Shown: one piece after another, positions 8,987-53,979 of the stretch | How the letters are laid out: every line of letters begins with the position of its first letter | How positions within the stretch are numbered: the stretch's first letter is position 1 | From: Methanobacteriota archaeon | GTDB taxonomy: Archaea > Thermoplasmatota > Poseidoniia > Poseidoniales > Poseidoniaceae | Direction of reading: 5' to 3' | Assembly: GCA_002719815.1 (NCBI GenBank) | Contig: PBET01000024.1 | Coordinates: 3,393 to 67,392, forward strand | Length of the DNA: 64,000 nucleotides | Program-made: the position numbers and the translations under genes | Notes under the pieces: generated by a model | Told to the model about the DNA's origin: nothing | Seen by the model: only the letters and a program-made list of their open reading frames with translations | Databases searched by the model: none

Positions 8987-9787
8987 TCAGTTGTCAGCCC
9001 ATGGGTCGACATCGGAGTTCCAGGTTGCATCTGCTTCAGCGGGTTCTTCCGCTTCTTCAGCAGGTTCCTCTGCTTCTTCTGCGACCTCTTCTGAATCCTC
9101 TGATGTTTCTTCTGGGGCTTCTTCTTCGGCTGGCTCTTCGACAGCTTCTTCTTCCGAAGGTGCTTCTTCAACAACGCCTTCTTCAATGAGTGCTTCAGCT
9201 TCCTCGACGGTCATTTCAGCAGCACGTGCTTCGACCATCTCATCCATACGTTCTGTGAACGCTCGAGACATGTGTTGAGATTCTCGTTCGGCTTCAACCG
9301 CACGCTCGATCATCTCATAACGTTCCTTAATGGCCTTGTTGAGGTCTTCAAAGAGTGTCATGTGAGCAACATACCAATCATCACGAGCCTTCATTTCAGT
9401 AACTGCGAGTTTCAAATCATTGTCAAGTTCTTCCGCAATTCCAAACACTTTCCCAAGACGATCTTTCTCTCGAGAATACTTCTCTTCCATTGTTTGGAGA
9501 GCAGGTTCCAAATGCTCAACACGCTTGTCTGCTTTTGTAGCCTTCATCTCAAGTTCACGAATACGGAAATCTTTCTCCGCGATAAGTGATTCTTGCGCTT
9601 CACGCTCAATCTCTTTGTCGATAATTTCTTTTTCGAGAACTTCGATCTCTGCTCGTGCATCAACAAGTTCCTTTTCTTGTGTTTCATACGCTGCAAAGAG
9701 TTTCTTCAGACGGTCTGTTTCAGTGGCGAGTGCCTCTTCAAGCTGGCCGATTCGAACTTCGGGAGTGATGGTTCCTTCTTCACTCAT
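8987..9787 (-). CDS. Coiled-coil protein with an extremely acidic E/A/P-rich C-terminal tail
   Basis: Heptad-like E/K/L-rich sequence runs for about 190 aa. It is followed by EEAPSEEEAVEEPAEEEAPEE... and ends ATWNSDVDPWADN. Confidence 0.5.
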   Translation of the reverse strand: MSEEGTITPEVRIGQLEEALATETDRLKKLFAAYETQEKELVDARAEIEVLEKEIIDKEIEREAQESLIAEKDFRIRELEMKATKADKRVEHLEPALQTMEEKYSREKDRLGKVFGIAEELDNDLKLAVTEMKARDDWYVAHMTLFEDLNKAIKERYEMIERAVEAERESQHMSRAFTERMDEMVEARAAEMTVEEAEALIEEGVVEEAPSEEEAVEEPAEEEAPEETSEDSEEVAEEAEEPAEEAEEPAEADATWNSDVDPWADN

Positions 9788-12802: not shown

Positions 12803-12872
12803 ACTACATCCGATACGAATGGGGATGATGTTGCTTTCGATGCCTTTTTTCGACGGATGCCATCGTCGATAC

Positions 12873-13499
12873 ATGAAGCAGGCAACAGACGTCTTCAACG
12901 ATTGGGCACACCGAGGCAAAGACGAGGGTATGGAACGTGGACACAGTCCTGCTGTCAATGAAATGTTGGAGGTTGCTTTCCAACGAGTCAATCAAGGAAA
13001 TCAACCCTTTTCATTCGCTGATTTAGGATGTGGAAATGGCTGGGTTGTACGATTGGTTGGTGGGCATGAGAACTGCATGCGAGCTGATGGTTTTGATGGT
13101 GCACCGCACATGATTGAGAAGGCAAACAACATTGATTCGAAACATGGTTATCATCTTGCTCTGTTTCCTGATACACAACCTCCTCAACAATACGATTTCA
13201 TTCATTCAATGGAATTCATTTACTACCTTCATGAACCTCAACAGATGCTACAATCAATTCACGACGATTGGTTGGCCGATGGAGGTTGGGCTGTAATTGG
13301 AATCGATCATTATGCGGAACATGAGGAAAGTCTTGGTTGGCCAGAAGCCCTCGATGTACATATGTCGACATTTACAGAGCAGGAATGGATTGCAATGTGG
13401 AATGACGTTGGATTTACTGAAATTCATGCGTGGAGAGCAAACCAATCCGAAGGAAAACCAGGAACACTCGCCATCATTGGGAAGAAAAATCAGAATTGA
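12873..13499 (+). CDS. Class I SAM-dependent methyltransferase
   Basis: The SAM-binding motif I FADLGCGNGW is present. ATG at 12873 (MKQATDVF) is preferred over ATG 12819. The 3' end overlaps the convergent AddA-like gene by 26 nt. Confidence 0.65.
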   Translation: MKQATDVFNDWAHRGKDEGMERGHSPAVNEMLEVAFQRVNQGNQPFSFADLGCGNGWVVRLVGGHENCMRADGFDGAPHMIEKANNIDSKHGYHLALFPDTQPPQQYDFIHSMEFIYYLHEPQQMLQSIHDDWLADGGWAVIGIDHYAEHEESLGWPEALDVHMSTFTEQEWIAMWNDVGFTEIHAWRANQSEGKPGTLAIIGKKNQN

Positions 13500-16400
13500 T
13501 CCCCAACTCAAGGCCCTGTGGTGCACACATTCGTACATCGCCATTGAAAAATGGACACTTTTTGCAGATATCAATCGCTTCCATTGGTAAGCGCTTCGGT
13601 TCGGTAACACCGTTTGAATCTGCAGTAAGGGTTGCCATCCAATGCAGGAGATTCATCAGTTCTTCTTCTGCTTCTTTGCACATCTTATCCGGCATTTGAA
13701 CAAGACGTCCCGTCGTGGCGATCAAGAGTGCTGGTGGCCGAATATCTCGTCTCTTTTCAATGGGTTTTCGTTCTTCTTGCTCACGCAAAACCAATGAATA
13801 AAGCATCAGTTGCAAACGATGATTTCGTAGCATCTGAACCTCCGCTTGGTTTTGTGGTTCAAACGAGAGCGGTTCATTCAGCGTCTCGTACAACGGGTGC
13901 AGTTCGAGTTCTTCCTCTCGCGCACCTGTTGTTTTCAAATCAATAACCTGCAACCAAGCCTGTTGATCTTCACATCCTGCAACCACAAGATCTGCCTGCC
14001 CTTCAAAGAGAACATTGACCGCATCAATCACTGTTCGAAATGACTGGTCAAGTTCTGTGAGTGGTGTTCTCAAACGACCTTTCAGGTCGATTTGTTGATT
14101 GAAAGAAAACGACAACTCCGTTCGCAACCCTTCGATTTCATGGCCATGAATCGCTTGACCTTCGACCATTTTTCCTAAAGCTCCATTTGATAGTCGTTTG
14201 GCCAAATCAATGATTCGTTGCCTCGTTTGCTTCTGTTCATCGCTGGACAATCGATGCCACTCGGGTTGTGATTGCGTTGCATCATCGATTTCCTTATCCG
14301 ATAACAGGTGGTTTTGTTGAGCATTCAACCAAACTTGTCCTAATTCAAAGCCTGTTGTCTTCATTTCTGCTGGATTTGCAATTCCAATTTCAACGAGTCT
14401 GTGGAACATCGATCCAAAGGCAGTTGCCGATGGCCAGCCGACAGAATTAGCCGTTACATCTTCCCCATCGGACCGATCTTTAGTATCCTCCTCACTCGAT
14501 TCGAACTTCGTTTCTTGATGGAGTTTGAAAGGCTCAGATTGCCAGCCTCGTACATGCGACAACCAATAGCGTCGTCGGCAGGAATGGGCCGTATCTAAGC
14601 CATGGGCTGTCATCTTTAACGTCGGGGTTTGATAAACAACGGCTTGTTCAATCTCACTGTCATCTGTCGCTTGTTCAACGAGTTGTTCCATGTTCAGCCA
14701 GTTGGAAAGTACGGAAGTTGGTGATTGTTCGGCAAAGCAATCAGGATGGTGATACATACGCAAGCTCTGTAGCGAATCTTGCATAAATCCACTCGACGTA
14801 TACAACGCATAGGGATCAAACTTCAACGTCTGCTCGCCATATTCTGCTAAACGTTCTCCTTGAACATCGTTGGTAAGACTCCAAGGCTGTTCATCGCCTG
14901 ATGCCAATCCCATGTATCGGAAACCTTCAAGCATCAAATCGCCCATGTTGTTCCCTTTTGCATTCACCTTCATCTCAACCATTGCATCATCACTCAACAA
15001 GCAAGGAGCATTTGGCGAGCCAACGAAGATCAAGCGATCTTTCACCCTGGTAAGTGCAACATAGAATTGACGACGCAATTCAGCTTGATTTTGTGCCTTG
15101 TTCATTTGTTCAGCCAACATCCACAAGGCATCTTCAGGCTTCTCTTTCGACTTCCATGGCTGAATACGGCCTGCAATTACATCTGGTGTAATCAAGACAT
15201 TGTTCTGAGCTTCAATGCTTGAACTGCGACGTCCTGCTTCAAACAATCCTGTGACGATCACAACCGGCGCTTGGAGACCTTTTGCCCCATGAATTGTCAT
15301 GATCTGAATCGCGCCACTTGTTGGTAAAGAACGGGCTTGGGGACCTTTGTTCCCAAGTGTTCCGAACGCCTTCATCTGATCAAGGATCGAGGCGGGTTCG
15401 TGTCCTGATTCACCACCTAATTTTTGCAACATTGCGTACCATGTTTCAGCAACTTGTCGTTCAGATTCATCTGGGAATGCGATGAGGAGATCGCTGTAAT
15501 CCAAGACAGCATCAAAGATTTCGTACATGGCGCCAGAATGTACCAAACGAGCGCATGCTTCCATGAGTGGCCCTTGAGGTTCGCCATCAAAATAGTCGGA
15601 AAAGAAGTGCCAATAATTGTCCACATCCTTCGTTTGGAAAATCTCCTCAATCTGTATGGATGATGCCCCAATAATTGAGGAACGAAGGACGGAATGGGCG
15701 GCATGTCTTGACCCTGGTCGTGCGAGAAGTTCCAACATAGCCATCAACGGTTGAACGACGGGTTGCTTGAGCAACTCACCTTGTTTATCAGCCATAACCG
15801 GCAATCCACGAGCTTGGAGTCGTGCGATTAAGTCGGGAATGTGCTTTCGTGAGTGGACGAGAATCATCACATCTTCAGGCAGAATTGGCTCTTCTGGTTC
15901 TACTTCAACAAAATCTTCCGCTTCTGTTGACCATATCCGAGTTGGTGAGCCTCGAACCAAGGCATCCAATCGAGAAGCGATAAGTTCATGTTCCAAATGA
16001 CGGAGATTTGCATTTCCTGCATCGAACAAGTTGTACCCTTGTGTAAGGCCAAGTGGTAGTTCCTCGGTATCGTTTTGAGTCGGAAGAAGCCACTCGATTG
16101 TCCCTATGCGTTCCGTATCTCGTCCAGATTCTAAGGGCTGAGCAGTTGCATGGAAATCGCCTGGGAATTGGTGATGCCGATGATTAAACGTGTCATCAAA
16201 CATATTGTTGAGCGTTTGAAGTAGGCCAGGTGCTGTTCGGAAATTCGTTCTCAGTTGAATATGGCCTTCGGCTCGTTCAACGATTGTATCATCATCGATG
16301 GCGAGACCTGCGTCGTCAATTCCATAGGAAACGTAGTCGTACGGAGCTGATTTCTCATCTCGGGAATAATCAGCGGCGGAGATGAATGAACCAGATTCAC

Positions 16401-18447
16401 CACCTGCGCCGACGGGCCGAGGATCTCGGCCGTGCCCTTCTTGAGTAAAAGTCTCCATCCGTTTCTCATTAGCCTCGATCTGGTTCGCTACACGAATGGA
16501 TGCAACCATTCGACGCATAACCGTAACCTCAGCCTGACGGAATCGGTAGATGCTTTGCTTCATATCACCAACAATGCAGATGGTTGGGTCCCAGGGACCT
16601 GCTGGTTCAGGGTGTTCTTCGGAAATGCCCTCTCTTCGCCCCCAAAGTCGCGAAAGGAGACGAGCATGTTCTGGATTCGTATCCTGATACTCGTCGATAA
16701 TGAAGGCTCGATATCGTGCACGAATTTGCTTTAATAGCGCAAATCTTCGTTGAAGATCAACGTATTTCTCTTCATCACGTTGCATAATGGTCAGTGCTCT
16801 TCGAATATGTTCATCCGACCATGGCTCATCACCAAGGTCATCCAATGCCTGGACAGCCTCGGGCGGATACCAATGACGAACGATGGCTGGACAGCGAACA
16901 AGGAGTAAATCGCCGACCATGACTTGAACATCGTCAAAATCATGCGCTTCTTCTTGTGCCTTCAAGTGACGAAGTAAATCCTGACAGCCTGAATGAACTG
17001 TATACAAATCGTTCAGAACTTCAACCTGAAGGTCACTAGAAACCCTCTGCATACCAGATGGTGGTTCGGTACCCAACGAAACGCCCAGTGGATGGCGGTC
17101 GTATTTTTCATTCGCATCTCGATGGACAAAAGGCCGTACAGGATTGAGGCAGTAGGCAACTTTTGCAAGCATCAACACCAGACGCCCATCACTTGGGTCA
17201 TGAATCCGGTTTTGCAAACGAGTTGCAGCCTTGGAAGCATCTTTCATGAGTTGTTCCTTGGTTGCCTCCTCAGATTTACGCTTGAAGACTGATGACCACG
17301 TCATCAAGCCTGAAGGCCAGTCTGCTAGCGTATTTGCTCGGGGGAAGTGCCCGTCCTTGAGAATGGTTGGTGCTGGCTCCTTCAACTGTGCATGCGATGC
17401 GGCCGCTGCAACCACCTGGTACAACCACTGAAGTTGTTCTATCGGAGTTGTAGGCAGTGCTTCCCGTGCCAAATGAGCGAGTTGATTGAAACGAGTATTT
17501 GTTGTAGCAACTTGCGCTGGAGCGACAATCACAGAATGATGTTCGAGGAAAACATCAACCCATTCGTTAAGGAATGCATGTACATCTTGAACGACCGGAG
17601 TGATAAGGTGGTGACACTCCTGTAAAATCATGTCCTCAATAAGTCGGTAATCTGGAGGTGTGTCACCATCCCATGGTAAACCAGTTCGAATCGAACGTGA
17701 GCGAAGCCGTCGCTTAGATTCCTCGACAAATAGCGACGATTCTAGCAATCCTTCCAATGCCGTTTGTGCACTTGCTTGACCTCCAAGCCGGATTGCGAGA
17801 CGATTGCGGGCAGCGATGAAAGCATCAGCTGATTGAAGCATGCCCGCTTCGATTGCATCGCGAGCATTTCGTATACGCCAAGCCGCATTCAATGCTTGAC
17901 TTCTCAAAAGAGGGGCTTTTTCTTCAGGAAGTTGTTCTCGACTGACGTGGATTGCTACGAGATCGATATGCGGTGAGAGAATTTCCGACAGGAACGCATC
18001 GATGGTCGATATTGGTGATGATTCAAGCAACGACATCAGCATCGAAACATCGCCTTGGTGACGCAGACGTGGGTCATGCATCCCCATTCGGTCATCGTCT
18101 TTTACAGGATGAGCACGAAGCGATTGAATCCTTTGTCGAATTCTTGACCGCAGTTCAGATGCCGCCTTTCGAGTGAAGGTAATCGCGACGATTTCTTGTG
18201 GCAACAGTCCTTTCCATTCATTCAATGGAGTGCGATCTTTCTTTGCTGCGAGAACGTGGCCTGCACCATACTGTTCCAACCGAATTGGTGGCGGCAAAAC
18301 ATGCGTAGCTCGTTGCTCTGCTGAAAGAAGATGCTGAACATATCGTTCAGCCATAACGGTGGTTTTACCTGTTCCAGCACCAGCATCCAATGCGATGTGT
18401 TGATCGAGATTAAGACCCAGTCGCTGACTTCTGTTGAAGGAAATCAC
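13474..18447 (-). CDS. AddA/RecB-like SF1 (UvrD-family) helicase fused to a C-terminal PD-(D/E)XK nuclease
   Basis: The helicase motifs occur in order: DAGAGTGKTT, ITFTRKAASELRSRI, IIDEYQDTN, VGDMKQSIYRFRQA, LRTNFRTAP, IMTIHGAKGLQAPVV, RRQFYVALTRVKDRLIF. The nuclease motifs are GQADLVV, VIDLKTTG and QLMLYS, flanked by Cys residues (SCRRRYW ... CKKCPFFNGDVRMC). The GTG start overlaps the upstream stop (GTGA at 18444-18447). Confidence 0.85.
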   Translation of the reverse strand: MISFNRSQRLGLNLDQHIALDAGAGTGKTTVMAERYVQHLLSAEQRATHVLPPPIRLEQYGAGHVLAAKKDRTPLNEWKGLLPQEIVAITFTRKAASELRSRIRQRIQSLRAHPVKDDDRMGMHDPRLRHQGDVSMLMSLLESSPISTIDAFLSEILSPHIDLVAIHVSREQLPEEKAPLLRSQALNAAWRIRNARDAIEAGMLQSADAFIAARNRLAIRLGGQASAQTALEGLLESSLFVEESKRRLRSRSIRTGLPWDGDTPPDYRLIEDMILQECHHLITPVVQDVHAFLNEWVDVFLEHHSVIVAPAQVATTNTRFNQLAHLAREALPTTPIEQLQWLYQVVAAAASHAQLKEPAPTILKDGHFPRANTLADWPSGLMTWSSVFKRKSEEATKEQLMKDASKAATRLQNRIHDPSDGRLVLMLAKVAYCLNPVRPFVHRDANEKYDRHPLGVSLGTEPPSGMQRVSSDLQVEVLNDLYTVHSGCQDLLRHLKAQEEAHDFDDVQVMVGDLLLVRCPAIVRHWYPPEAVQALDDLGDEPWSDEHIRRALTIMQRDEEKYVDLQRRFALLKQIRARYRAFIIDEYQDTNPEHARLLSRLWGRREGISEEHPEPAGPWDPTICIVGDMKQSIYRFRQAEVTVMRRMVASIRVANQIEANEKRMETFTQEGHGRDPRPVGAGGESGSFISAADYSRDEKSAPYDYVSYGIDDAGLAIDDDTIVERAEGHIQLRTNFRTAPGLLQTLNNMFDDTFNHRHHQFPGDFHATAQPLESGRDTERIGTIEWLLPTQNDTEELPLGLTQGYNLFDAGNANLRHLEHELIASRLDALVRGSPTRIWSTEAEDFVEVEPEEPILPEDVMILVHSRKHIPDLIARLQARGLPVMADKQGELLKQPVVQPLMAMLELLARPGSRHAAHSVLRSSIIGASSIQIEEIFQTKDVDNYWHFFSDYFDGEPQGPLMEACARLVHSGAMYEIFDAVLDYSDLLIAFPDESERQVAETWYAMLQKLGGESGHEPASILDQMKAFGTLGNKGPQARSLPTSGAIQIMTIHGAKGLQAPVVIVTGLFEAGRRSSSIEAQNNVLITPDVIAGRIQPWKSKEKPEDALWMLAEQMNKAQNQAELRRQFYVALTRVKDRLIFVGSPNAPCLLSDDAMVEMKVNAKGNNMGDLMLEGFRYMGLASGDEQPWSLTNDVQGERLAEYGEQTLKFDPYALYTSSGFMQDSLQSLRMYHHPDCFAEQSPTSVLSNWLNMEQLVEQATDDSEIEQAVVYQTPTLKMTAHGLDTAHSCRRRYWLSHVRGWQSEPFKLHQETKFESSEEDTKDRSDGEDVTANSVGWPSATAFGSMFHRLVEIGIANPAEMKTTGFELGQVWLNAQQNHLLSDKEIDDATQSQPEWHRLSSDEQKQTRQRIIDLAKRLSNGALGKMVEGQAIHGHEIEGLRTELSFSFNQQIDLKGRLRTPLTELDQSFRTVIDAVNVLFEGQADLVVAGCEDQQAWLQVIDLKTTGAREEELELHPLYETLNEPLSFEPQNQAEVQMLRNHRLQLMLYSLVLREQEERKPIEKRRDIRPPALLIATTGRLVQMPDKMCKEAEEELMNLLHWMATLTADSNGVTEPKRLPMEAIDICKKCPFFNGDVRMCAPQGLELGINSDFSSQ

Positions 18448-21400
18448 TTTGTTTCACCTCCAATGGATGCAGAAGAGCACGCACTTGCGAGTGAACAATA
18501 CTTGCAGTGATCTCCTGGTGCAGGATGATTCCAGCCGAGTTCACTTGCATCCTGTGCCCGGATTGCGGCAGTAATTCTTGAACTCATCCACGCCCGGAAA
18601 CTGTTACTCTCCGGTGTTGTTCCTTCAGTTGGTATACGGAAATGATTTCCAGAGTAAAACGTTCGAGTTCCGATGGTTCGGCTTTCCTCAAGAAAAGCAA
18701 AACTCGGATCGAGTTCAAGGAGATGTTCCGTATCATCGCCCACTTCTGAGATACCAACGCCAATGACGCGATCGCCTGGATGTGCTAATTCCCAAGCACG
18801 AGCATAGAGTGCTAATTGAATCTCCTTGAAGAGGCCCGCGACATGTCGAATGCCATCTTCACCAGGTTTTGGTCCTTCGATGGTTTTGAGGTCTCGAATG
18901 ATGATGAAGCGCTTCGCAGGAGGTCCACTTCCATCAAAGAAAAGTGGCATCCCTTCTGCGCTCTCATCATAGAGCCCACGCTCGGTTAGTCGTTCAAGGA
19001 GCGATTCATCGAGAACAAGGTGATCAACGCGATCAATTCGCCCACGTAACTTGATGCATGAGGTTTCAAATTGATCATCAAACCCTTCGATTTCTACACT
19101 CAACTCCGTTCCATGTTGCAACGCCCATTCACTGGCAATTGGTGCTGCTGAGGTCAGGTTGAGATCTGCTAAAAGTAGACGTCCGAGTCGCCCTCCAATC
19201 GGAAGCGTTCCGTTGCCTTCAAGCCAATCGTTCCAATCTTCAGGCGAGCAGCCAATCAAATCATTGCAGCGATGAACGGAAACTGCATTTGTTCTCGATA
19301 ACCAGGGAGCGATTTCAGACAAATGCCAGAGCAAACTTTCCCATATTTCTTGGTTTGATAGTGAAGTTCCTTGATGCATTGGCGTACCTTCGGCCAGTGG
19401 CGTCCCTCCTACTTCAATTCCAAGAAGTGTCATGAGATGTTCCTCAATGGCATGAACCAACGTTCCTTTTGTGAGTGGCGCAATGTCTTCAGAGGGCTCG
19501 GGAGTGTTGTCCGTGGCATCGAGTGTCTGTTCAGACCATGCTTGTCGGGGGCAAGTCAGCCAAGGTGTTAATCGGCTTGTTGACCATGTCTTTGATTCCG
19601 TTTCGATCGGTTGACTGGAAAGAATTTCGTTCAGGCTTGGTGAACCATACGTAGGCGGAGGAAGCGGACGAGGGTCGAGTGAAGGCCCCCTCGAATTGCC
19701 ATTCTTCTTGTATCCGAGATGCGGATAGGATGCTGAGGTTCGACCACCACTCACCTCGGCTTGAGAGACCGTGGGTTCGATGACAAGGCCCGTTGTTGTG
19801 AGCAAGCTCTCCCGTATCTCCCATGGCAGAATGCTTCCATTTGCAAGTGGCTTGAATTTTGGTTGGCGACGATAGCGATCGAGATGCACATCGCGTTCAA
19901 ATCGATTCGCTATGGTATTCGCTGACTGAATCGTTCCACTCGGAGTCCGCAACGCTTTCAATTCAAGACCAGTCTGTTGTTGCAGATCTCGTTGCATGTT
20001 CTCTGCTCGTTCAAGTTCCACTTCACCACCGTTCACAGATAATGAAGAAGTTCGATATGTCAGCCAATTTCCTGTTTCTCGAGTCACAATTGACCATCCA
20101 GCACCATCAGAAACTTCTTCCTGCAGGAACGCTGGAATGGCCGCAAGATTCCGTAAATCACCTTGCAGTTCAACGCCTGAAAGGTACTCGACAACCGGTG
20201 TCGAATTACCCGCAGATTCATCATGTTCGGTATCGAAGAGGATCACTTGTTGGCTTGAATTTAGCACAGATTTGAAGAGATGACGCGCCTGACGAACGGG
20301 TAAGTCTCCATCATTCAAGCCTAATTCGACTCGAACAGAATCGTCAATCCAAGGCACTCGCTCAGGCTTCATCGACCATGACTCAGCATCAATTCCAACG
20401 AAGAGAGTGAGGTCCGATGCTACCCCAAACGCTTGCTTTGGTGTACAGATATGTACATCGAAATGACGAACTCGATTCATAGGTAGTTTGGTTTGATCGG
20501 CTGCTAACCGACAAAAATCAATGAATGGAAGACTCGACTGATATTGGAGCAAACCATCAACGGATCGGACCCATGATTGCACGGCACCTACGGAGGCATC
20601 GTAATGCCGTGTACGTTCAAACAACGCCTCCCAGTCACATGCATGTAAAATTGTGCTGAGTACGTCTCGTGGCGTTTTACTTGGCTCGGGCAAGGGTAGA
20701 GAAATGTTTGATGACGCGCCAACGAATGGATTCGCAAGGAAGTTTTTCTCGGTTTCATCGAGTAACGCAGTCCATGATGTTGCAAGGCATTGCAACCACC
20801 ACTGCGTCTCCTCAATCGCTCGCAATTCTTCCTCACGACGATAGGCTTCAACAGCATATGGTTTTGCAACAGCTAAAGAGCCAAGCCACCGTTGGAGCGC
20901 TCCTTTTCCGCCAAGAACGTGGAAACTGCGGCCGATGTTTTCAATCACGTCCAAGTGTGGCCTTGGCCGCCAATCCTTCTTTTCTGGATGGGTCAAATCG
21001 GAAAACAATTTGCCAATAATCGGGAACGCCTTTGACTGGGCGATATCGAACAGTTTAGCTGTTGACCATGCATCTTGGCCATTGGGAATTGACAGAAATC
21101 GAAGTATTGCTTGTATAGCAGAGGTACTTCCAACTGAATCTGCTTGAGTATCGCATGTAATTCCAATGCGCTGCAGACGGCGAATCCATTCCTTGTGGCG
21201 GCCCTTGTCGGCATCGATGAGAAGAATACGTCCTTGTTCATGCTTGTTGAAATGATTGATGACTGAAATTGCGGCATCTGGAATCTGCGAGGCTCGGTCG
21301 AAACTCAGTAAGTGGATTCCTTCTGTCGCGTAATCAGCGTTACCGGATGCTGGAGGCAGAACGGTATGACGTGGGACCCATTCTGGCAGTTGGTCATCGC

Positions 21401-22148
21401 GTTCCAAAAGCGGTAGTTCATCATCGATGTATGCTCCATGAAATCCGAGACGGAATGAGCCTGTGACACAAAGATGATGGATTGGGCTTCGCACTGATAA
21501 GGCCTTGAGAAACTGCTTCTCATCTTCATGAAAGTCAGGCGGATGGTTGAGAAGGAGGATACCACGAATTGCTCCAAGCGTGTAAGGCGTTGGAACATTC
21601 AAATCGGCGAGTGCTGAACAAATTCGGGCGATGACGTGGTGCTCATGCAGAAGATTTTCGTTTTCAAACGATGAAAGAATCCGATCTGCTTCAAATGCGC
21701 CGGGATCTTCTTCCCACGTCGAAAGGATACCATGTTTTGTTGCATACGCATGGAGAGAAAGCAAACGCTCTGATTTTGAAAGTGTCCATGGCCTGGTCAC
21801 GTCGGGATGGAGGCGAGGAAAACGATGATCTTGCGCTGCAGAGGCAAACTTTTCGTGAACTTGTACAAGACCAGTCGATGTTCTTGGCACAAGAACAGGT
21901 AGTCGGAGATCGATCGTTAAGGACTTCAAGAGTCGTTGAAGCGTTGTGTGTCTGCTTGAATCAACAGAGCCCGCTTTCTGAAGAATGGCCTGGATAGACG
22001 AGGACCGAGTGACTTCATTCGGATAGATGACCAATAAATCGTCCCGTCCTGTTGCAATTTCATCCACAACCCAGGACGGGACGGTCGTATCGAAAGGGCA
22101 TGACTCTACTGTGATGTTCTCAGCCATATCCTCCCCACCCATCTTCAT
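18444..22148 (-). CDS. AddB-like subunit: long helicase-like scaffold without Walker A plus a C-terminal RecB-type nuclease with Cys4 (Fe-S staple-type) signature
   Basis: I found no GxGKT motif. The C-terminal motifs are GRIDRVD, IIIRDLKT and QLALYARAW, bracketed by LTCPRQAW and HCKYCSLASAC (C-x2-C-x5-C). The gene is translationally coupled to the AddA-like gene. Confidence 0.6.
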   Translation of the reverse strand: MKMGGEDMAENITVESCPFDTTVPSWVVDEIATGRDDLLVIYPNEVTRSSSIQAILQKAGSVDSSRHTTLQRLLKSLTIDLRLPVLVPRTSTGLVQVHEKFASAAQDHRFPRLHPDVTRPWTLSKSERLLSLHAYATKHGILSTWEEDPGAFEADRILSSFENENLLHEHHVIARICSALADLNVPTPYTLGAIRGILLLNHPPDFHEDEKQFLKALSVRSPIHHLCVTGSFRLGFHGAYIDDELPLLERDDQLPEWVPRHTVLPPASGNADYATEGIHLLSFDRASQIPDAAISVINHFNKHEQGRILLIDADKGRHKEWIRRLQRIGITCDTQADSVGSTSAIQAILRFLSIPNGQDAWSTAKLFDIAQSKAFPIIGKLFSDLTHPEKKDWRPRPHLDVIENIGRSFHVLGGKGALQRWLGSLAVAKPYAVEAYRREEELRAIEETQWWLQCLATSWTALLDETEKNFLANPFVGASSNISLPLPEPSKTPRDVLSTILHACDWEALFERTRHYDASVGAVQSWVRSVDGLLQYQSSLPFIDFCRLAADQTKLPMNRVRHFDVHICTPKQAFGVASDLTLFVGIDAESWSMKPERVPWIDDSVRVELGLNDGDLPVRQARHLFKSVLNSSQQVILFDTEHDESAGNSTPVVEYLSGVELQGDLRNLAAIPAFLQEEVSDGAGWSIVTRETGNWLTYRTSSLSVNGGEVELERAENMQRDLQQQTGLELKALRTPSGTIQSANTIANRFERDVHLDRYRRQPKFKPLANGSILPWEIRESLLTTTGLVIEPTVSQAEVSGGRTSASYPHLGYKKNGNSRGPSLDPRPLPPPTYGSPSLNEILSSQPIETESKTWSTSRLTPWLTCPRQAWSEQTLDATDNTPEPSEDIAPLTKGTLVHAIEEHLMTLLGIEVGGTPLAEGTPMHQGTSLSNQEIWESLLWHLSEIAPWLSRTNAVSVHRCNDLIGCSPEDWNDWLEGNGTLPIGGRLGRLLLADLNLTSAAPIASEWALQHGTELSVEIEGFDDQFETSCIKLRGRIDRVDHLVLDESLLERLTERGLYDESAEGMPLFFDGSGPPAKRFIIIRDLKTIEGPKPGEDGIRHVAGLFKEIQLALYARAWELAHPGDRVIGVGISEVGDDTEHLLELDPSFAFLEESRTIGTRTFYSGNHFRIPTEGTTPESNSFRAWMSSRITAAIRAQDASELGWNHPAPGDHCKYCSLASACSSASIGGETK

Positions 22149-22239: not shown

Positions 22240-22293
22240 TAACATGAATTGTAACATGAATAATTCATGTTTTGTATAATTCAGAACATGAAT
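22240..22293. promoter_or_regulatory. Operator-like array: three direct (T/G)AACATGAAT copies and a perfect 19-bp palindrome AACATGAAT-A-ATTCATGTT
   Basis: The direct copies lie at 22240-22249, 22252-22261 and 22284-22293. The palindrome spans 22253-22271. A further ATTCA-N5-TGAAT lies at 22279-22293. The array ends 7 bp upstream of the TATA-like box. Confidence 0.5.
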
Positions 22294-22300
22294 CGTTGGA

Positions 22301-22421: not shown

Positions 22422-23495
22422 ATGACGAAAAAGTGTGAAGAATGTGGCAGTTATGACTTGAAAGCGGACAACATCCGAGGCGAGGTGGTTTGCAACGATT
22501 GTGGACTTGTCATCGAGGATCAAGCCTCGGCGACCCAAAACGACAATGCAGGAACAATGTGGGGCGAAAATGCATCCAACACTCCGACCAAAGATGAAGC
22601 CAAGATTAAGACTGGCTCGAAGGGTAATGCGCTTGGTTCCTACATCGGTAAGCCAAATGAAGCGAAGGGCAAGTGGAAAATCCTACGACACCTGCACGCT
22701 CGAGATGTCAAGGACCTGCACCCAATGGCGCAAGCTACGATGGATGCTGCAAAGGAGTTGGCTGGCAAGGACAACGCCATGAAGGCGAAGAAAGTCATCA
22801 CCCTAGCGACCGTTCCACTCGATGATGAGAAAGCGAAGGCGTTGCGAGAAATCGCTGATGAGGAGGAAATCATCCTTCCAAAGAACTCTGTTTGCCGAAA
22901 GAAAACCCGAGGGGGAAGCACCCAGAACAACGAGAAGTTGCTTGCGCTGGGTTGTCTGCGAGCACATCAGGAGCGAACTGGCAAAATCAACATCGATTGG
23001 CCCCAGATGGTTGAAGGCACTGGTTTGACCATGGCTCAGGTTGTTGATGCTGCAAAAGTCATCATGAAGTACCTTAATCTATGCGAGAAAGCGCATCTTA
23101 TCGAAGAGCGAGCAGACCGAAGAACTGTTCATCTCGAGTTGCGAAACACCGAAATCGAGAACACTACGCTTCGACTGAAGCAACTTCTCGAAGATGTTGA
23201 TGAATCCGTGAAGACGCAAATCATGGACGATTACAAGCAACGACTCTTCACCTTGGGTGAGCCGACATTAGGCGGTTCACCGTTCTCAAGCGAGAACATT
23301 GAGGCCAAGGTCCTCTGCGCAATTCTCTTCCAAATCTCATGCGAGTCCTTTGGTGTTGAACAAGGACGGCTCGAGAACATCGCTCATGCGATTGGTCGAT
23401 GTCGAAACACCATCAAGAACCGCCTCAAGTCCCTTCGAAAGAAGGTGGCGTCTGGTGAGCTGGTTGACTTTGGTGTCTTGCAGAAGAAGCACTGA
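22422..23495 (+). CDS. Divergent TFB-like protein (TFIIB-type N-terminal zinc ribbon)
   Basis: The N-terminus KKCEECGSYDLKADNIRGEVVCNDCGLVIED is a TFIIB-type ribbon. The remaining roughly 320 aa are helical and basic. I cannot align them confidently to the B-reader (GPEWRAF) or the two cyclin repeats. Confidence 0.5.
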   Translation: MTKKCEECGSYDLKADNIRGEVVCNDCGLVIEDQASATQNDNAGTMWGENASNTPTKDEAKIKTGSKGNALGSYIGKPNEAKGKWKILRHLHARDVKDLHPMAQATMDAAKELAGKDNAMKAKKVITLATVPLDDEKAKALREIADEEEIILPKNSVCRKKTRGGSTQNNEKLLALGCLRAHQERTGKINIDWPQMVEGTGLTMAQVVDAAKVIMKYLNLCEKAHLIEERADRRTVHLELRNTEIENTTLRLKQLLEDVDESVKTQIMDDYKQRLFTLGEPTLGGSPFSSENIEAKVLCAILFQISCESFGVEQGRLENIAHAIGRCRNTIKNRLKSLRKKVASGELVDFGVLQKKH

Positions 23496-23503
23496 ATCGT
23501 GAG

Positions 23504-24442
23504 ATGGATTATCTCATTAAGGAGAGGTTCGTCCAGCGATACATGACTCGATTGCTCGTTGTTGGAGTTTTAGTTGTCCTGATGGTTTCTGTTGTACCTG
23601 TAGCGCATGCTGCGGAGATTAAAGAACTTGAAACAGGCATGCTCTTTGGTGGACTTCATGGAATGGCGAATGAGACCATCGTCGTCAACAGTAGCCTAGA
23701 AGATCTTCCTGCAATTGCTGAAGATTACACAGCCACCTGGTGTGGAAATTGTGTTGAAGTCGGCAATGCGCTCGAGACTGTGGCGGAGAACATCAGCATG
23801 GAGATCTATGCTGTTCATCGGAACATCTACGAGACTCAGGATCCACTAGGCAACGAGAATGTCGACGCACGCTTTAGGGACCGATACGATATCTATGCGC
23901 CAGAATTCAAACCTCCTGTGGCCGGTATCAATGGCAAGTACTCCCTTCGTGGTAGCAACCCTGTTGGTGATTCTCTGGAATCTGACTTTGCAGACTTAGC
24001 ATCACAACCGCATAATCTTGGAGATGGTTCCGTCACAATGACATGGACACCAACGGGTGATAATTCAGGAACTGTCGCTTGGAGCATTGATCAATCAACC
24101 AGTGCAGTTTACAATGTAACCATATGGATGGTCGAGAAAGAAGCTTACTTCCCAGATGGTACAAACAACCAGATCTACTACCATCACATTGTTCGTGAAA
24201 TCATTGATGTGGGAACTGTTACTGAAACTGGACTGAGTACGGGAACTGAGCAGATTACCTATGCCGATGCATACGATGATGATGACCTTGAAGTCCATAT
24301 CATGTTCCATGAGTACATCGAACGTCCTGAAATACAAGACGAGACCCCAACAGAACCTACCTCAGAGGATACACCCTTCCTCTCCATGCCTTTGACGATA
24401 CTTGCCCTTCTTGCAGTAGCCCTACGGCGACAGGATCAGTAG
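23504..24442 (+). CDS. Membrane-anchored extracytoplasmic thioredoxin-like protein
   Basis: An N-terminal signal/anchor (LLVVGVLVVLMVSVVPVAHA) is followed by the thioredoxin-type motif YTATWCGNCVEV. A C-terminal hydrophobic anchor (PLTILALLAVALRR) closes the protein. Confidence 0.45.
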   Translation: MDYLIKERFVQRYMTRLLVVGVLVVLMVSVVPVAHAAEIKELETGMLFGGLHGMANETIVVNSSLEDLPAIAEDYTATWCGNCVEVGNALETVAENISMEIYAVHRNIYETQDPLGNENVDARFRDRYDIYAPEFKPPVAGINGKYSLRGSNPVGDSLESDFADLASQPHNLGDGSVTMTWTPTGDNSGTVAWSIDQSTSAVYNVTIWMVEKEAYFPDGTNNQIYYHHIVREIIDVGTVTETGLSTGTEQITYADAYDDDDLEVHIMFHEYIERPEIQDETPTEPTSEDTPFLSMPLTILALLAVALRRQDQ

Positions 24443-26673
24443 AAATCAACCATGTTTGCGTGAAGTCGAGCATCAACTTCTGGCATGCGATCAGGCGGAC
24501 GTCCCACCTCGATGAAACGAAGAACGTAATCATCGATGTTTGCAAATCCAAACTCTTCGGTCATCGGTTCCATGAGTTCTCGCAACGCCTGTCGAGGATC
24601 TGCAATTGGGAAATCTCGACGGATGAAGACTTGGTTTAATTGACGATAACGTGCATGTCTGTATCCCAAAATCTCAAGGATTCGGCGAAGTGCATCTTCT
24701 TCTTGGGCAGATCGGATGGTTAGTCGCAAACGACATCCTTGCATCCGGAACATTCCACGCACACCACCGAGTTCGACCTGATGGCCAATCGGTTGCAGCG
24801 AAAGTGCCTCCCACACCAGTGGCATCGTTCGATACCAGCGATAGAATTGATCATCTTGACGAGGCTCTCTGGGTTCTTCTTCATTCTGAAACGGGGGATT
24901 TACAACAAGATTCTCTCGGATTTGTTGCCATCGAGGGAAGATGACTTGTTGTTGCAACCTCTGACGATAAAAATCTCCTTCTAAGATTTGATCATCATCA
25001 AATTCGTAATCAAAATCTGGATTTAAGTGGCCAGGCATATCGAAACCAACTTCCCGACCGGGACGTTGTTTCCAGTCTGCAACAATTTCCTCATCAGTCA
25101 TCAATTTCAAAGAACGGAATGCGATTGGTTCTTCTTCTTCCCCATCACCAAGGAGAAGACGATGAAGATGAAATCTGTGTTGCTTCCCAGATCGCTTGTA
25201 GAAGTCTTCTGGGTCCGCCCCTGTGTCTTTTTGAGCTACCCCGATTGGTGGCTGGGTCAGCAAATGCATCTGCAAACTATTCACCCGTTTCGAAGTCGTG
25301 ACATCTGAGAGAAGCGAGAGTATGACAATTGCAATGGTATCCCCTATCGGGATATCTTTGTGGTAGTTTCCTGTATGAATGCAAATCGAATGCCGATGCG
25401 TCACAGTCTTACCAACACCATGAATTTTGAAAGGTGCATTGTGTGCACCACGACCAATTCGAACCTCGTAGAAATGGCCAAGCATCCCTCGAACGAGCAT
25501 GCGGTCTCGATGAACCCAGGTATCGTTCGGGAATTGTTGAAGAACGCCTCGCAAAAATTGCATTGAACGGCGGAAGGGGACATTCGCAGTCTCAGCATTT
25601 TCATATGCTGCCGTCCAATTCATCTGCGTAGCAATGAGCCATTCGCCTTCTTTGGAACCGTGTGGGGAAGATCCCCATGAAATCAATCCAGCCAAGAGGC
25701 CTGGCACGAAGGGAATTTTTGCTCGGCGTACACTTCCATTCTTCGCCAATGTTCTAAAACAGAGATTTCCCTTAGAATTGACCATAAATGGGAAACTAAC
25801 ATTTGCATGTTTCACGGATTCTGACAACTCAATCCAACGTTGAACCCAGGGCCATTGTGAAGGCGGAATCGCCCTATTTTCTTGGTTCCGAATAAAGCGC
25901 CGTGCAAATTTCATCCGTTGTCTTGGTCGACGACCTGCCATTCGTTCCATCAAGTGGGACGACCAATCAGACCCGTCAGAAAAGAGTGGTTTCTTTTTAC
26001 GGCGCTCGTTTTGATCTAAGAGAAACGATGTTTGGACAAATACATCAAAGGGAGAAAGGAGTTCACGTTCAAATTGTCCAAACAGTCGATGGTAACGCTG
26101 TAGGATTCGTCGAGGGCGTCCTTGAGGATCGAGTGTTTGGTACAACCCACTCAACGCTAAGAAGAGCTTGACGAGATCCCAACCTTTGCGTTCTTCAGGA
26201 TTCAGGAGAAGCAAGAGGTACTGCTCCATCGGAATTCGAGCCTCGTGAATCCGCCCGTCGATGGTCATTCGTCCATCGATAAATGCGAGAAGCGTTCCAT
26301 CCCACATCACGAAGCCTTCCTCAAGGCGTTCCTTTTCGTAACCAGAATAACCTGTTTGCTTTTCGAGTTTTTCAATAAAGATGGACTCTTCTTCTTCGGG
26401 AAATGGGGAGTGGCGGACGGGATCTTGATCCGCCTCATCAAGACGGGCCCAGTCAACATCGGGCGTATGATTCATGAAGCGTTCGAGATTTCCCCAGCGC
26501 TTTTTCAATGAACGAACTGGCCCGCCAAGGACCGATGCCATGCGTTGATGGACTTCAAGAGGCAACGATGGTGCCCATTTACTCTCTTCGGTCAATTCGA
26601 TGCAGCGTATGCAGATTGGACAATTCGTTTCAGTATTTTCATTTTGGCAGATGCCACAGGCTTCCCCAATCAT
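24436..26673 (-). CDS. Large orphan protein with an N-terminal Cys5 zinc-ribbon/treble-clef-like motif
   Basis: ATG at 26673 gives MIGEACGICQNENTETNCPICIRC; the track start at 26709 is TTG. I recognise no other family motif with confidence. It lies directly downstream of ltaE on the same strand. Confidence 0.5.
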   Translation of the reverse strand: MIGEACGICQNENTETNCPICIRCIELTEESKWAPSLPLEVHQRMASVLGGPVRSLKKRWGNLERFMNHTPDVDWARLDEADQDPVRHSPFPEEEESIFIEKLEKQTGYSGYEKERLEEGFVMWDGTLLAFIDGRMTIDGRIHEARIPMEQYLLLLLNPEERKGWDLVKLFLALSGLYQTLDPQGRPRRILQRYHRLFGQFERELLSPFDVFVQTSFLLDQNERRKKKPLFSDGSDWSSHLMERMAGRRPRQRMKFARRFIRNQENRAIPPSQWPWVQRWIELSESVKHANVSFPFMVNSKGNLCFRTLAKNGSVRRAKIPFVPGLLAGLISWGSSPHGSKEGEWLIATQMNWTAAYENAETANVPFRRSMQFLRGVLQQFPNDTWVHRDRMLVRGMLGHFYEVRIGRGAHNAPFKIHGVGKTVTHRHSICIHTGNYHKDIPIGDTIAIVILSLLSDVTTSKRVNSLQMHLLTQPPIGVAQKDTGADPEDFYKRSGKQHRFHLHRLLLGDGEEEEPIAFRSLKLMTDEEIVADWKQRPGREVGFDMPGHLNPDFDYEFDDDQILEGDFYRQRLQQQVIFPRWQQIRENLVVNPPFQNEEEPREPRQDDQFYRWYRTMPLVWEALSLQPIGHQVELGGVRGMFRMQGCRLRLTIRSAQEEDALRRILEILGYRHARYRQLNQVFIRRDFPIADPRQALRELMEPMTEEFGFANIDDYVLRFIEVGRPPDRMPEVDARLHANMVDFY

Positions 26674-26705
26674 GGGGATACTGAATGTCGAGGTGTTAAA
26701 AAGTT

Positions 26706-53899: not shown

Positions 53900-53979
53900 G
53901 AACGAGGGCTGGCCTTGAAGAACATGAAACCTACGCTTGAAGCCGAAAGTGTTGAATGCCTCCTTGTTGAGTTTCACCT

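What the first reader, a model, noticed from the sequence alone, without database searches (positions are those of the whole stretch)
13474..22148. Bacterial-type AddA/AddB-like helicase-nuclease pair in an archaeal context, with Cys4 clusters around both nuclease domains
Two giant ORFs (1657 and 1234 aa) are translationally coupled by a GTGA overlap at 18444-18447. The first has the full SF1 UvrD motif set and a RecB-type nuclease. The second has no Walker A but has a RecB-type nuclease with the canonical C...C-x2-C-x5-C staple. As I recall, in characterised AddAB only AddB carries the Fe-S cluster. Here the motor subunit also has one Cys upstream (SCRRRYW) and C-x2-C-x9-C downstream of its nuclease. 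Archaeal end resection is normally attributed to Mre11-Rad50-HerA-NurA, so a complete AddAB-style machine next to archaeal core genes is unusual. It suggests horizontal acquisition, or an uncharacterised archaeal resection or anti-invader nuclease.
Basis: partly seen in the sequence, partly recalled or inferred. Interest (0 to 1): 0.65.

Follow-up and report, generated by a model that had tools for sequence, protein, structure and literature searches.

The report
Archaeal AddAB-type helicase-nuclease, double iron staple
Marine Group II archaea (Poseidoniales) carry, as a conserved core gene pair, a very diverged version of the bacterial AddAB DNA-break-processing machine. Unusually, the motor subunit as well as the partner subunit has the four cysteines that normally hold an iron-sulfur cluster.

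Summary
Two overlapping minus-strand genes encode a 1234-aa protein ("B", 18444-22148) followed by a 1657-aa protein ("A", 13474-18447).

- **A** has all seven SF1/UvrD helicase motifs and a C-terminal RecB-family nuclease.
- **B** has no ATPase motifs. Its AlphaFold model matches B. subtilis AddB over its full length (Foldseek E 9e-19, TM about 0.53), and it ends in an intact RecB-family nuclease with C866...C1215-x2-C-x5-C.
- **A** also carries C1290...C1628-x2-C-x9-C. All four are present in 129 of 143 family members. Its nuclease model is closest to the iron-sulfur nucleases Dna2 and AdnA.

The contig is archaeal (MCM, GatE, Trm1), and homologues are named Poseidoniales. The B-then-A pair sits in a syntenic block in at least 299 species genomes, with host-like codon usage. 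It is therefore an old, vertically kept gene pair, not a recent transfer. The nearest outsiders to A are bacterial AddA proteins.

Best reading: an AddAB-type enzyme with one motor and two nucleases that resects double-strand breaks. It is a new variant: archaeal, far below the AddA/AddB model cut-offs, and with a second predicted iron staple. Activity, iron-sulfur binding and the status of Mre11/Rad50/HerA/NurA were not testable.

The parts
18444..22148 (-). Gene B: AddB-like subunit, 1234 aa, first gene of the pair
   Evidence: ORF; Pfam PDDEXK_1. The AF2 model has pLDDT 84.4. Its best PDB match is AddB 4cej_B, E 9.3e-19, TM 0.51-0.55 over the full length.
19749..22148 (-). B residues 1-800: degenerate SF1-helicase-like region without ATPase motifs (approximate boundary)
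   Evidence: No Walker A or DExx motif in B or in 76 homologues. The fold aligns with the AddB, AdnA and UvrD cores. A weak remnant of the motif V region aligns with A's TIHGAKGL region.
18447..19601 (-). B residues 850-1234: RecB-family nuclease domain with intact catalytic motifs (H899, GRIDRVD 1036-1042, IIRDLKT 1083-1089, QLALYARAW 1111-1119)
   Evidence: Pfam PDDEXK_1. These residues are invariant in 20 diverse homologues.
19551..19553 (-). B Cys866 (CPRQAW), the first ligand of the predicted iron staple
   Evidence: Present in 77 of 77 sequences. In the model it sits in a one-residue break between two helices (model residue 832), as described for AddB.
18477..18506 (-). B Cys1215-x2-Cys1218-x5-Cys1224
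   Evidence: Present in 76, 76 and 71 of 77 sequences. Same spacing as B. subtilis and B. fragilis AddB.
18444..18461 (-). B/A junction: GGAGGTGA (18461-18454), then the GTG start of A overlapping the TGA stop of B (GTGA, 18447-18444)
   Evidence: Sequence read. The B-A overlap or abutment is present in every related locus that holds enough DNA.
13474..18447 (-). Gene A: AddA-like motor-nuclease subunit, 1657 aa
   Evidence: Pfam UvrD-helicase, UvrD_C and PDDEXK_1. NCBIfam recB 139 bits and addA_Gpos 137 bits. Best PDB sequence match is AddA 3u44_A, E 2.6e-15.
15013..18447 (-). A residues 1-1145: SF1A (UvrD-like) helicase with motifs I, Ia, II, III, IV, V and VI
   Evidence: Motif positions; near-invariance in 121 homologues.
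13477..14760 (-). A residues 1230-1657: enlarged RecB-family nuclease domain (H1349, E1353, E1444, D1486, D1503, K1505, Q1546, Y1550)
14578..14580 (-). A Cys1290 (SCRRRYW, or CPRRHW in relatives), the first ligand of the predicted second iron staple
   Evidence: Present in 116 of 121 sequences. The C-[PR]-R-x-x-W motif is the same as in B and Cas4. It sits in a one-residue break between helices in the model (model residue 141).
13525..13566 (-). A Cys1628-x2-Cys1631-x9-Cys1641
   Evidence: Present in 118, 120 and 114 of 121 sequences. All four Cys are present in 129 of 143 family sequences, including members with 30-40% identity. Model pLDDT here is 86-91.
22241..22296 (.). Cluster of AACATGAAT / ATTCATGTT repeats in the divergent promoter region upstream of B (candidate operator; function inferred only)
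   Evidence: Repeats found. Four of the five copies in the 64-kb window lie here. The motif recurs upstream of B in 22 related loci, usually as the only copy or copies in about 19.7 kb.

Best explanation
The two genes encode a heterodimeric AddAB-type helicase-nuclease with one motor and two nucleases. It belongs to the core genome of Poseidoniales (Marine Group II archaea).

Inferred mechanism, by analogy with B. subtilis AddAB and mycobacterial AdnAB:
1. The complex binds a double-stranded DNA end.
2. The SF1A motor of A translocates 3'-to-5' on the 3'-ended strand and unwinds the duplex.
3. That strand passes across the inactive helicase-like body of B, which is the Chi-scanning site in AddB, and into the nuclease of A.
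4. The displaced 5' strand is cut by the nuclease of B.
5. The result is either destruction of linear DNA or a 3' single-stranded tail for the archaeal recombinase RadA.

B's four Cys are predicted to hold a 4Fe-4S 'iron staple' that pins its nuclease domain, as in AddB. A's four Cys are predicted to do the same for its enlarged nuclease domain. That second staple has not been described in characterised AddAB or AdnAB, where only the AddB/AdnA subunit has the cluster.

Shown here: domain content, folds, catalytic and Cys conservation, gene order, and taxonomic and syntenic conservation. Inferred: complex formation, strand assignment, iron-sulfur binding, any Chi-like control, and the cellular role.
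For: A subunit:
- Full SF1 motif set plus PDDEXK_1.
- Best solved relative is AddA.
- The nearest proteins outside the family are bacterial AddA-type, with addA_alphas or addA_Gpos as best NCBIfam hits.

B subunit:
- No ATPase motifs.
- The AF2 model (pLDDT 84) matches AddB chains first (E about 1e-18, TM 0.51-0.55), then AdnA, with RecC lower.
- Intact nuclease motifs and a C...C-x2-C-x5-C set.

Gene arrangement:
- The order is B then A, with overlapping stop and start. A bacterial addB-addA operon fetched for comparison has the same layout (L085).
- The pair is intact in every related locus that holds enough DNA and in two deep relatives.

A's cysteines:
- All four are present in 129 of 143 sequences. 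Where ligands are lost, several are lost together.
- The first Cys lies in a helix-turn-helix break, like that of AddB.
Against: - Sequence scores are far below the curated AddA, RecB and AddB cut-offs: 137-139 bits against about 700, and B reaches only E 0.049.
- The B profile finds no AddB in the PDB by sequence. hhalign against a bacterial AddB gives only 11% probability.
- No biochemical or genetic data exist, and heterodimer geometry and Cys-Cys distances could not be measured with these tools.
- A few family members lack A's Cys set (P0227, P0209, P0134), so the second staple is dispensable in some lineages.
- The partner recombinase is RadA rather than RecA, so downstream coupling is unknown.
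Confidence: 0.75

Rival explanations
1. The same machine, but its main cellular role is defence. It would degrade linear foreign DNA such as magrovirus genomes, as RecBCD and AddAB also do in bacteria, rather than serve recombinational repair. This is a difference of role, not of mechanism, and the two roles may coexist.
For: Both nucleases have intact active sites. A also gives weak hits to GajB-type UvrD helicases of the Gabija defence system. Bacterial RecBCD/AddAB is known to degrade unprotected linear DNA (established knowledge; discussed by analogy for HerA-NurA).
Against: The GajB hits (68 bits or less) are weaker than the recB and addA hits (137-139 bits) and cover only the generic helicase core; B hits nothing in PADLOC. 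The pair sits in a conserved housekeeping syntenic block rather than a variable defence island, and is found in at least 299 species genomes. No relative of B was found in viral contigs.
Confidence: 0.12
2. A Dna2-like enzyme for replication or fork processing. On this view the iron-staple nuclease plus SF1 helicase of A acts on flaps or stalled forks, and B is an accessory nuclease.
Against: Dna2 has its nuclease N-terminal to an SF1B helicase, whereas A has an SF1A UvrD-type helicase N-terminal to the nuclease, as in AddA and RecB. The obligatory AddB-fold partner is a hallmark of AddAB and AdnAB. The proximity of MCM is part of a large syntenic block and is not specific.
Confidence: 0.05
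3. An artefact: a bacterial contig or bacterial genes mis-assembled or mis-binned into an archaeal context.
For: Three related contigs carry bacterial bin names: Salipiger, Rhodobiaceae and Verrucomicrobiales (L013, L023, L065).
Against: The window itself encodes MCM, GatE, Trm1 and PAC2. Codon usage of A and B is typical of the window. The pair with the same archaeal neighbours recurs in dozens of independent assemblies, including the 2.06-Mb MG-II chromosome CM001443.1. The three bacterial labels are best explained as binning contamination of those MAGs.
Confidence: 0.01

Closest known systems
AddAB helicase-nuclease (B. subtilis AddAB, PDB 3U44/4CEJ; proteobacterial-type AddAB, TIGR02784/TIGR02786)
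   Same: - The gene order is addB then addA, with overlapping stop and start.
- A is an SF1A UvrD-like motor with a C-terminal RecB-family nuclease.
- B is an inactivated helicase fold with a C-terminal RecB-family nuclease and a C...C-x2-C-x5-C iron staple.
- Like the proteobacterial-type AddB fetched here (L085), B has no Walker A motif.
   Different: - The host is archaeal.
- Sequence identity to solved AddB is only 10-11%, and both proteins fall far below the AddA and AddB equivalog cut-offs.
- A is about 420 aa longer than B. subtilis AddA, with additions in the 1B, 2B and nuclease regions (offsets taken from the alignment).
- A's nuclease carries its own four-Cys set, which is absent from characterised AddA.
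- B. subtilis AddB keeps a Walker A motif; B does not.
Mycobacterial AdnAB (PDB 6PPJ, 9NP6)
   Different: AdnA keeps Walker A and B motifs and binds nucleotide, whereas B has none. In AdnAB only AdnA is reported to hold the cluster. Here the lead motor subunit is predicted to have one as well.
RecBCD
   Same: A scores as high against the RecB model (139 bits) as against AddA. RecC, like B, is an inactivated helicase fold that scans for Chi.
   Different: RecC has no active nuclease and no iron staple, whereas B has both. B matches RecC less well than AddB (E about 1e-9 against 1e-18). No RecD-like gene lies next to the pair.
Iron-staple nucleases Dna2 and Cas4
   Same: They share the RecB-family nuclease core bracketed by one N-terminal Cys in a C-P/R-R-x-x-W/Y context and three C-terminal Cys. 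Dna2 is the best structural match for A's nuclease domain.
   Different: Dna2 has the opposite domain order and an SF1B helicase. Cas4 is a stand-alone protein of about 200 aa. A's last Cys spacing is x9 rather than x5.
Archaeal Mre11-Rad50-HerA-NurA resection system
   Same: It has the same presumed cellular task, producing 3' tails at double-strand breaks for RadA.
   Different: The proteins and architecture are unrelated. Whether Poseidoniales also encode that system was not testable here.

Membership tests
AddAB-type helicase-nuclease | Two adjacent co-directional genes in the order addB then addA | tested here: met
   B (18444-22148) is followed by A (13474-18447) on the minus strand with a GTGA overlap. 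The layout is the same in all related loci with enough DNA and in a bacterial addB-addA operon (L085).
AddAB-type helicase-nuclease | AddA: a complete SF1A (UvrD/PcrA-like) motor followed by a RecB-family nuclease with intact catalytic residues | tested here: met
   Pfam UvrD-helicase, UvrD_C and PDDEXK_1. Motifs I-VI are located. The catalytic H/E/D/D-x-K/Q-x3-Y residues are invariant.
AddAB-type helicase-nuclease | AddA reaches the curated equivalog score (TIGR02785 addA_Gpos 707.65 bits; TIGR02784 addA_alphas 860.75 bits) | tested here: not met
   A scores 137.1 and 113.6 bits. By sequence it is an outlier, not an equivalog.
AddAB-type helicase-nuclease | AddB: an inactivated UvrD-like helicase fold followed by a RecB-family nuclease | tested here: met
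   The AF2 model has pLDDT 84.4. Foldseek's top five hits are all AddB chains, E 9e-19 to 4e-17, TM 0.51-0.55. Pfam finds PDDEXK_1. No ATPase motifs are present.
AddAB-type helicase-nuclease | AddB reaches the curated equivalog score (TIGR02786 486.5 bits; TIGR02773 903.7 bits) | tested here: not met
   The only hit is addB_alphas at 11.7 bits, E 0.049. No AddB is found in the PDB by sequence or profile. hhalign against a bacterial AddB gives 11% probability.
AddAB-type helicase-nuclease | AddB iron staple: one Cys upstream and C-x2-C-x5-C downstream of the nuclease core | tested here: met
   C866, C1215, C1218 and C1224 are conserved in 71-77 of 77 sequences. They are also present in the deep relatives L081 and L082.
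AddAB-type helicase-nuclease | Actual 4Fe-4S binding, heterodimer formation, ATP-dependent resection of duplex ends, and regulation by Chi | not testable with these tools
   These need purified protein (UV-visible and EPR spectra, iron and sulfide content, pull-down, unwinding and nuclease assays) and a genome-wide search for a Chi candidate.
AdnAB | Both subunits keep Walker A and B ATPase motifs | tested here: not met
   B and all 76 homologues lack Walker A, and B lacks a DExx motif.
RecBCD | The RecC-like subunit lacks a nuclease active site, and a RecD SF1B motor is present | tested here: not met
   B has invariant nuclease motifs. The flanking genes are a Zn-ribbon protein and a methyltransferase, not RecD. 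Only the neighbourhood was examined, not the whole genome.
Iron-staple nuclease class (AddB, AdnA, Dna2, Cas4), applied to the nuclease domain of A | A RecB-family core bracketed by 1 + 3 conserved Cys, with the first Cys in a turn between two helices | tested here: met

The most novel reading that the evidence does not exclude
Poseidoniales and their deeper relatives use a vertically inherited AddAB-type enzyme with two iron-sulfur clusters as their principal double-strand-break resection machine. On this reading it feeds RadA, is controlled by a lineage-specific Chi-like sequence read by the B subunit, and has functionally replaced or sidelined HerA-NurA. The second cluster, in the lead motor subunit, would be a structural or regulatory solution not seen in any characterised bacterial enzyme.
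Probability: 0.3. Interest if true: 0.7.

Novelty: new variant of a known kind. Interest (0 to 1): 0.55.

Why it matters
Archaeal end resection is taught as the work of Mre11-Rad50-HerA-NurA. This result shows that one of the most abundant archaeal groups in the surface ocean keeps a complete bacterial-style AddAB machine as a core, syntenic gene pair.

- It gives a concrete test case for how a RecA-world end processor works with RadA.
- It raises the question of whether Chi-like regulation exists in archaea.
- It asks what a second iron-sulfur staple in the motor subunit adds.
- It provides a very diverged AddB (10-11% identity to the solved one) that still keeps the fold, which is useful for defining what is essential in AddB and RecC scaffolds.
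- On the practical side, current annotation calls these proteins only 'UvrD-helicase domain-containing' and 'PD-(D/E)XK nuclease family'.

Tried and rejected
- **PADLOC defence models.** Only generic GajB/UvrD helicase hits for A, and nothing for B or the neighbours. No known defence system is indicated.
- **Viral contigs.** No relative of B was found, so the pair is not virus-borne.
- **Sequence link of B to AddB.** phmmer and profile searches of the PDB found only a marginal Cas4 hit. hhalign against a bacterial AddB was weak, though colinear. The link to AddB therefore rests on fold and architecture.
- **Recent duplication of B's nuclease into A.** hhalign of the A C-terminal profile against the B profile aligned only a helicase motif-V remnant and not the nuclease domains. 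Rejected.
- **Recent horizontal transfer.** GC and codon usage of A and B are typical of the window, and the whole neighbourhood is syntenic across the order. Rejected.
- **Literature.** Ten searches found no paper on a Poseidoniales or MGII AddAB. Cromie 2009 and Yeeles 2009 are not held. Cromie's suggestion that AddAB was transferred into archaea is known here only through a citing paper.
- **Partner of the nearest bacterial AddA.** P0283 has no adjacent AddB, so P0286 (L085) was used instead.
- **Last protein search.** Using the B-like protein of L082 returned only 3 unnamed hits, so that deep lineage stays unidentified.
- **Not attempted.** A Chi-motif search was skipped because 64 kb is too little sequence. 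Mre11/Rad50/HerA/NurA were not looked for because no whole Poseidoniales genome is reachable with these tools.

Full report
**1. Observation**

The region holds two long minus-strand ORFs: 18444..22148 (1234 aa, ATG; "B") and 13474..18447 (1657 aa, GTG; "A"). On the coding strand B comes first. Its TGA stop overlaps the GTG start of A (GTGA at 18447-18444), and a GGAGGTGA lies 7 nt upstream of that start.

Pfam finds UvrD-helicase, UvrD_C, AAA_19 and PDDEXK_1 in A, and only PDDEXK_1 in B. All seven SF1 motifs of A could be located. B, and all 76 of its homologues, lack a Walker A motif.

- B has C866 and C1215-x2-C1218-x5-C1224.
- A has C1290 (SCRRRYW) and C1628-x2-C1631-x9-C1641.

**2. Organism and conservation**

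The window encodes MCM, GatE, Trm1, two PAC2 proteins and a TFIIB-type zinc-ribbon protein. Named homologues of both proteins come from Candidatus Poseidoniaceae or Poseidoniales MAGs.

A scan of one genome per species found a relative of B in 299 genomes. The best 80 are almost all Poseidoniales and include the 2.06-Mb MG-II chromosome CM001443.1. Three contigs with bacterial bin names are best read as binning contamination.

In every locus with enough downstream DNA, B is immediately followed by an A homologue of about 1650 aa. The wider neighbourhood is syntenic across the order: beta-eliminating lyase, a 757-aa ORF, two opposite-strand genes, B, A, a convergent methyltransferase, and an alpha/beta hydrolase.

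Two much more distant members keep the B-then-A pair and part of that synteny. One lies on a 3.0-Mb contig with 71% GC, and the other in an unclassified 'Euryarchaeota archaeon' MAG. GC content and codon usage of A and B are typical of the window. The pair is therefore old and vertically maintained. It is not on a mobile island, and no relative of B is found in viral contigs.

**3. What the proteins are**

*A.* The best solved relative by sequence is B. subtilis AddA (E 2.6e-15), followed by RecB. NCBIfam gives recB 139 bits and addA_Gpos 137 bits, far below the cut-offs of about 700 bits.

A profile of A residues 850-1657 was searched against 1.84 billion representatives. It shows a sharply bounded family: full-length members of 1500-1716 aa score at least 313 bits over the whole profile. 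The next full-length proteins (1050-1260 aa) score about 110 bits or less and match only the helicase part. Those outsiders are bacterial AddA-type, with addA_alphas or addA_Gpos as best NCBIfam hits. Source names include 'ATP-dependent helicase/nuclease subunit A' and a Thiotrichales protein.

*B.* B has no significant sequence match to any solved structure, even as a profile. An AlphaFold2 model of residues 35-1234 (55-sequence alignment, pLDDT 84.4) matches all five B. subtilis AddB chains first (E 9e-19 to 4e-17, TM 0.51-0.55, full length, 10-11% identity). Mycobacterial AdnA comes next, and RecC and plain UvrD-like helicases score lower.

B's nuclease motifs are invariant in diverse homologues: H899, GRIDRVD, IIRDLKT and QLALYARAW. 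B is therefore an AddB-type subunit with an inactivated helicase scaffold and a live nuclease. It is not a RecC, which has no nuclease, and not an AdnA, which keeps ATPase motifs. A bacterial operon fetched for comparison (L085) has the same layout: a 912-aa AddB without Walker A, ending in C-x2-C-x5-C, overlapping the start of addA.

**4. The cysteines**

B's four Cys are present in 77, 76, 76 and 71 of 77 sequences. A's four are present in 116, 118, 120 and 114 of 121. The remaining Cys of B, and five of the remaining ten in A, are variable. In the same set C488, C519, C624 and C1237 of A are also conserved, but they are not part of the predicted staple: C624 lies in helicase motif III and C1237 is replaced in the deeper members of the family.

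In a wider set of 143 A-family sequences, reaching down to 30-40% identity, all four are present in 129. The exceptions include proteins that have lost two to four ligands together (P0122, P0131, P0134, P0209, P0227). That pattern is what a single functional unit would produce.

Other evidence points the same way:
- A's first Cys sits in a C-[PR]-R-x-x-W context, the same as in B (CPRQAW) and Cas4.
- In both models the first Cys occupies a one-residue break between two helices: B model residue 832 and A model residue 141. This is how the first AddB ligand is described in the crystal structure paper.

The literature read here places the cluster only in AddB and only in AdnA. A predicted staple in the lead motor subunit, together with the usual one in the partner, is therefore an undescribed arrangement as far as I could check.

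It is not entirely unique to this family. Among about 40 outgroup representatives, three helicase-nucleases also have Cys-flanked nuclease domains: P0321, the actinobacterial P0324 and P0326. Cys-Cys distances could not be measured because model coordinates are not exposed.

**5. Mechanism**

The best-supported explanation (confidence 0.75) is an AddAB-type DNA-end-processing enzyme with a single motor and two nucleases:
1. A's 3'-to-5' SF1A motor unwinds from a duplex end.
2. The 3' strand runs over B's dead helicase body and into A's nuclease.
3. The 5' strand goes to B's nuclease.
4. The iron staples stabilise the two nuclease domains, and in B help to bind and split the DNA end.
5. The product is either degraded linear DNA or a 3' tail for RadA.

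Domain content, folds, catalytic residues, gene coupling and conservation are shown. Complex formation, strand assignment, cofactor binding, any Chi control and the cellular role are inferred from B. subtilis AddAB and AdnAB.

The rivals are:
- a mainly antiviral role for the same machine (0.12). PADLOC gives nothing specific, and the locus is in core, syntenic DNA;
- a Dna2-like replication role (0.05). The domain order and helicase class do not fit;
- an assembly or binning artefact (0.01), which is contradicted by many independent assemblies.

**6. Comparison and novelty**

By architecture and fold this works like AddAB. By the curated sequence models it is not an equivalog of AddA or AddB, since both cut-offs are missed by a wide margin.

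It differs from characterised AddAB in four ways:
- the host domain is Archaea;
- the sequences are extremely diverged;
- A is about 420 aa larger;
- A carries a second predicted iron staple.

That AddAB genes may have moved into archaea was suggested by Cromie (2009), as cited in PMC2887965. The original paper was not available. No paper in the searchable library describes this Poseidoniales pair, and public annotation is generic. I rate it a new variant of a known kind, interest 0.55.

**7. Limits**

- Whether Poseidoniales also have Mre11, Rad50, HerA and NurA could not be tested, because no whole genome can be scanned with these tools.
- The source and date of the presumed bacterial acquisition were not resolved by a phylogeny.
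- Iron-sulfur binding and enzymatic activity are predictions.

Noticed in passing
window 52745-53977 (-): A third RecB/Cas4-family nuclease in the window. It is a stand-alone 410-aa PDDEXK_1 protein (Pfam E 2.5e-21) with its own iron-staple-like Cys set: C46 in CPRMYW, and C288-x3-C292-x5-C298. It gives weak Cas4 and DruK hits in PADLOC, and no cas genes were seen nearby.
   Followed up: partly
window 22241-22296: Four copies of AACATGAAT / ATTCATGTT, direct and inverted, lie in the divergent promoter region between B and the Zn-ribbon gene. Only one other copy exists in the 64 kb. The motif recurs upstream of B in 22 related loci, usually as the only copy in about 19.7 kb. It is a candidate operator with no known binding factor.
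   Followed up: partly
window 22422-23495 (+): A 357-aa protein in which only an N-terminal TFIIB-type zinc ribbon is detected, with no cyclin-fold TFB core. It is divergently transcribed from B and conserved in that position in 54 loci, though at only 22-28% identity in the more distant ones. Its GC3 of 0.57 is well above its neighbours (about 0.40).
   Followed up: partly
window 58829-60949 (-): A bacterial-type NAD-dependent DNA ligase (LigA, with adenylation, OB, HhH and BRCT domains). It is a second bacterial-style DNA-metabolism gene on this archaeal contig.
   Followed up: no
window 24436-26709 (-): A 757-aa ORF upstream of B on the same strand, with no Pfam or PADLOC hit. It is conserved in that position in 52 related loci at 24-82% identity. 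Its function is unknown.
   Followed up: partly
window 8987-9787 (-): A 266-aa ORF with no Pfam hit and by far the most deviant codon usage in the window (distance 0.169 against 0.04-0.10 for the others). It may be a low-complexity protein or not a real gene.
   Followed up: no
L013, L023, L065: Contigs that carry the Poseidoniales-type B gene (37-69% identity) are deposited in MAGs named Salipiger bermudensis, Rhodobiaceae bacterium and Verrucomicrobiales bacterium. This is probably binning contamination in those public MAGs.
   Followed up: no
L081 (ENA ERZ26167216, 3.0-Mb contig, positions 2868604-2893280): A 71%-GC genome keeps the B-like (1164 aa) then A-like (1558 aa) overlapping pair. 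It also keeps neighbours shared with the window: PS decarboxylase, a radical-SAM protein, an Obg-like GTPase and PTH2. It appears to be a deep, unidentified relative of Poseidoniales with a much larger genome.
   Followed up: partly
L083 5084-8659 (protein P0321): An AddA-like protein of 1191 aa (addA_Gpos 413 bits) from an unnamed metagenome contig. Its nuclease domain is also Cys-flanked (CPREYY and C-x2-C-x7-C), and no AddB gene is adjacent. Motor-nucleases with an iron-staple signature therefore exist sporadically outside the Poseidoniales family.
   Followed up: partly
window 12819-13499 (+) against 13474-18447 (-): A class-I SAM methyltransferase gene converges on A and overlaps its 3' end by 26 nt. 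The arrangement is conserved in 62 loci, including the deep relative L082.
   Followed up: partly
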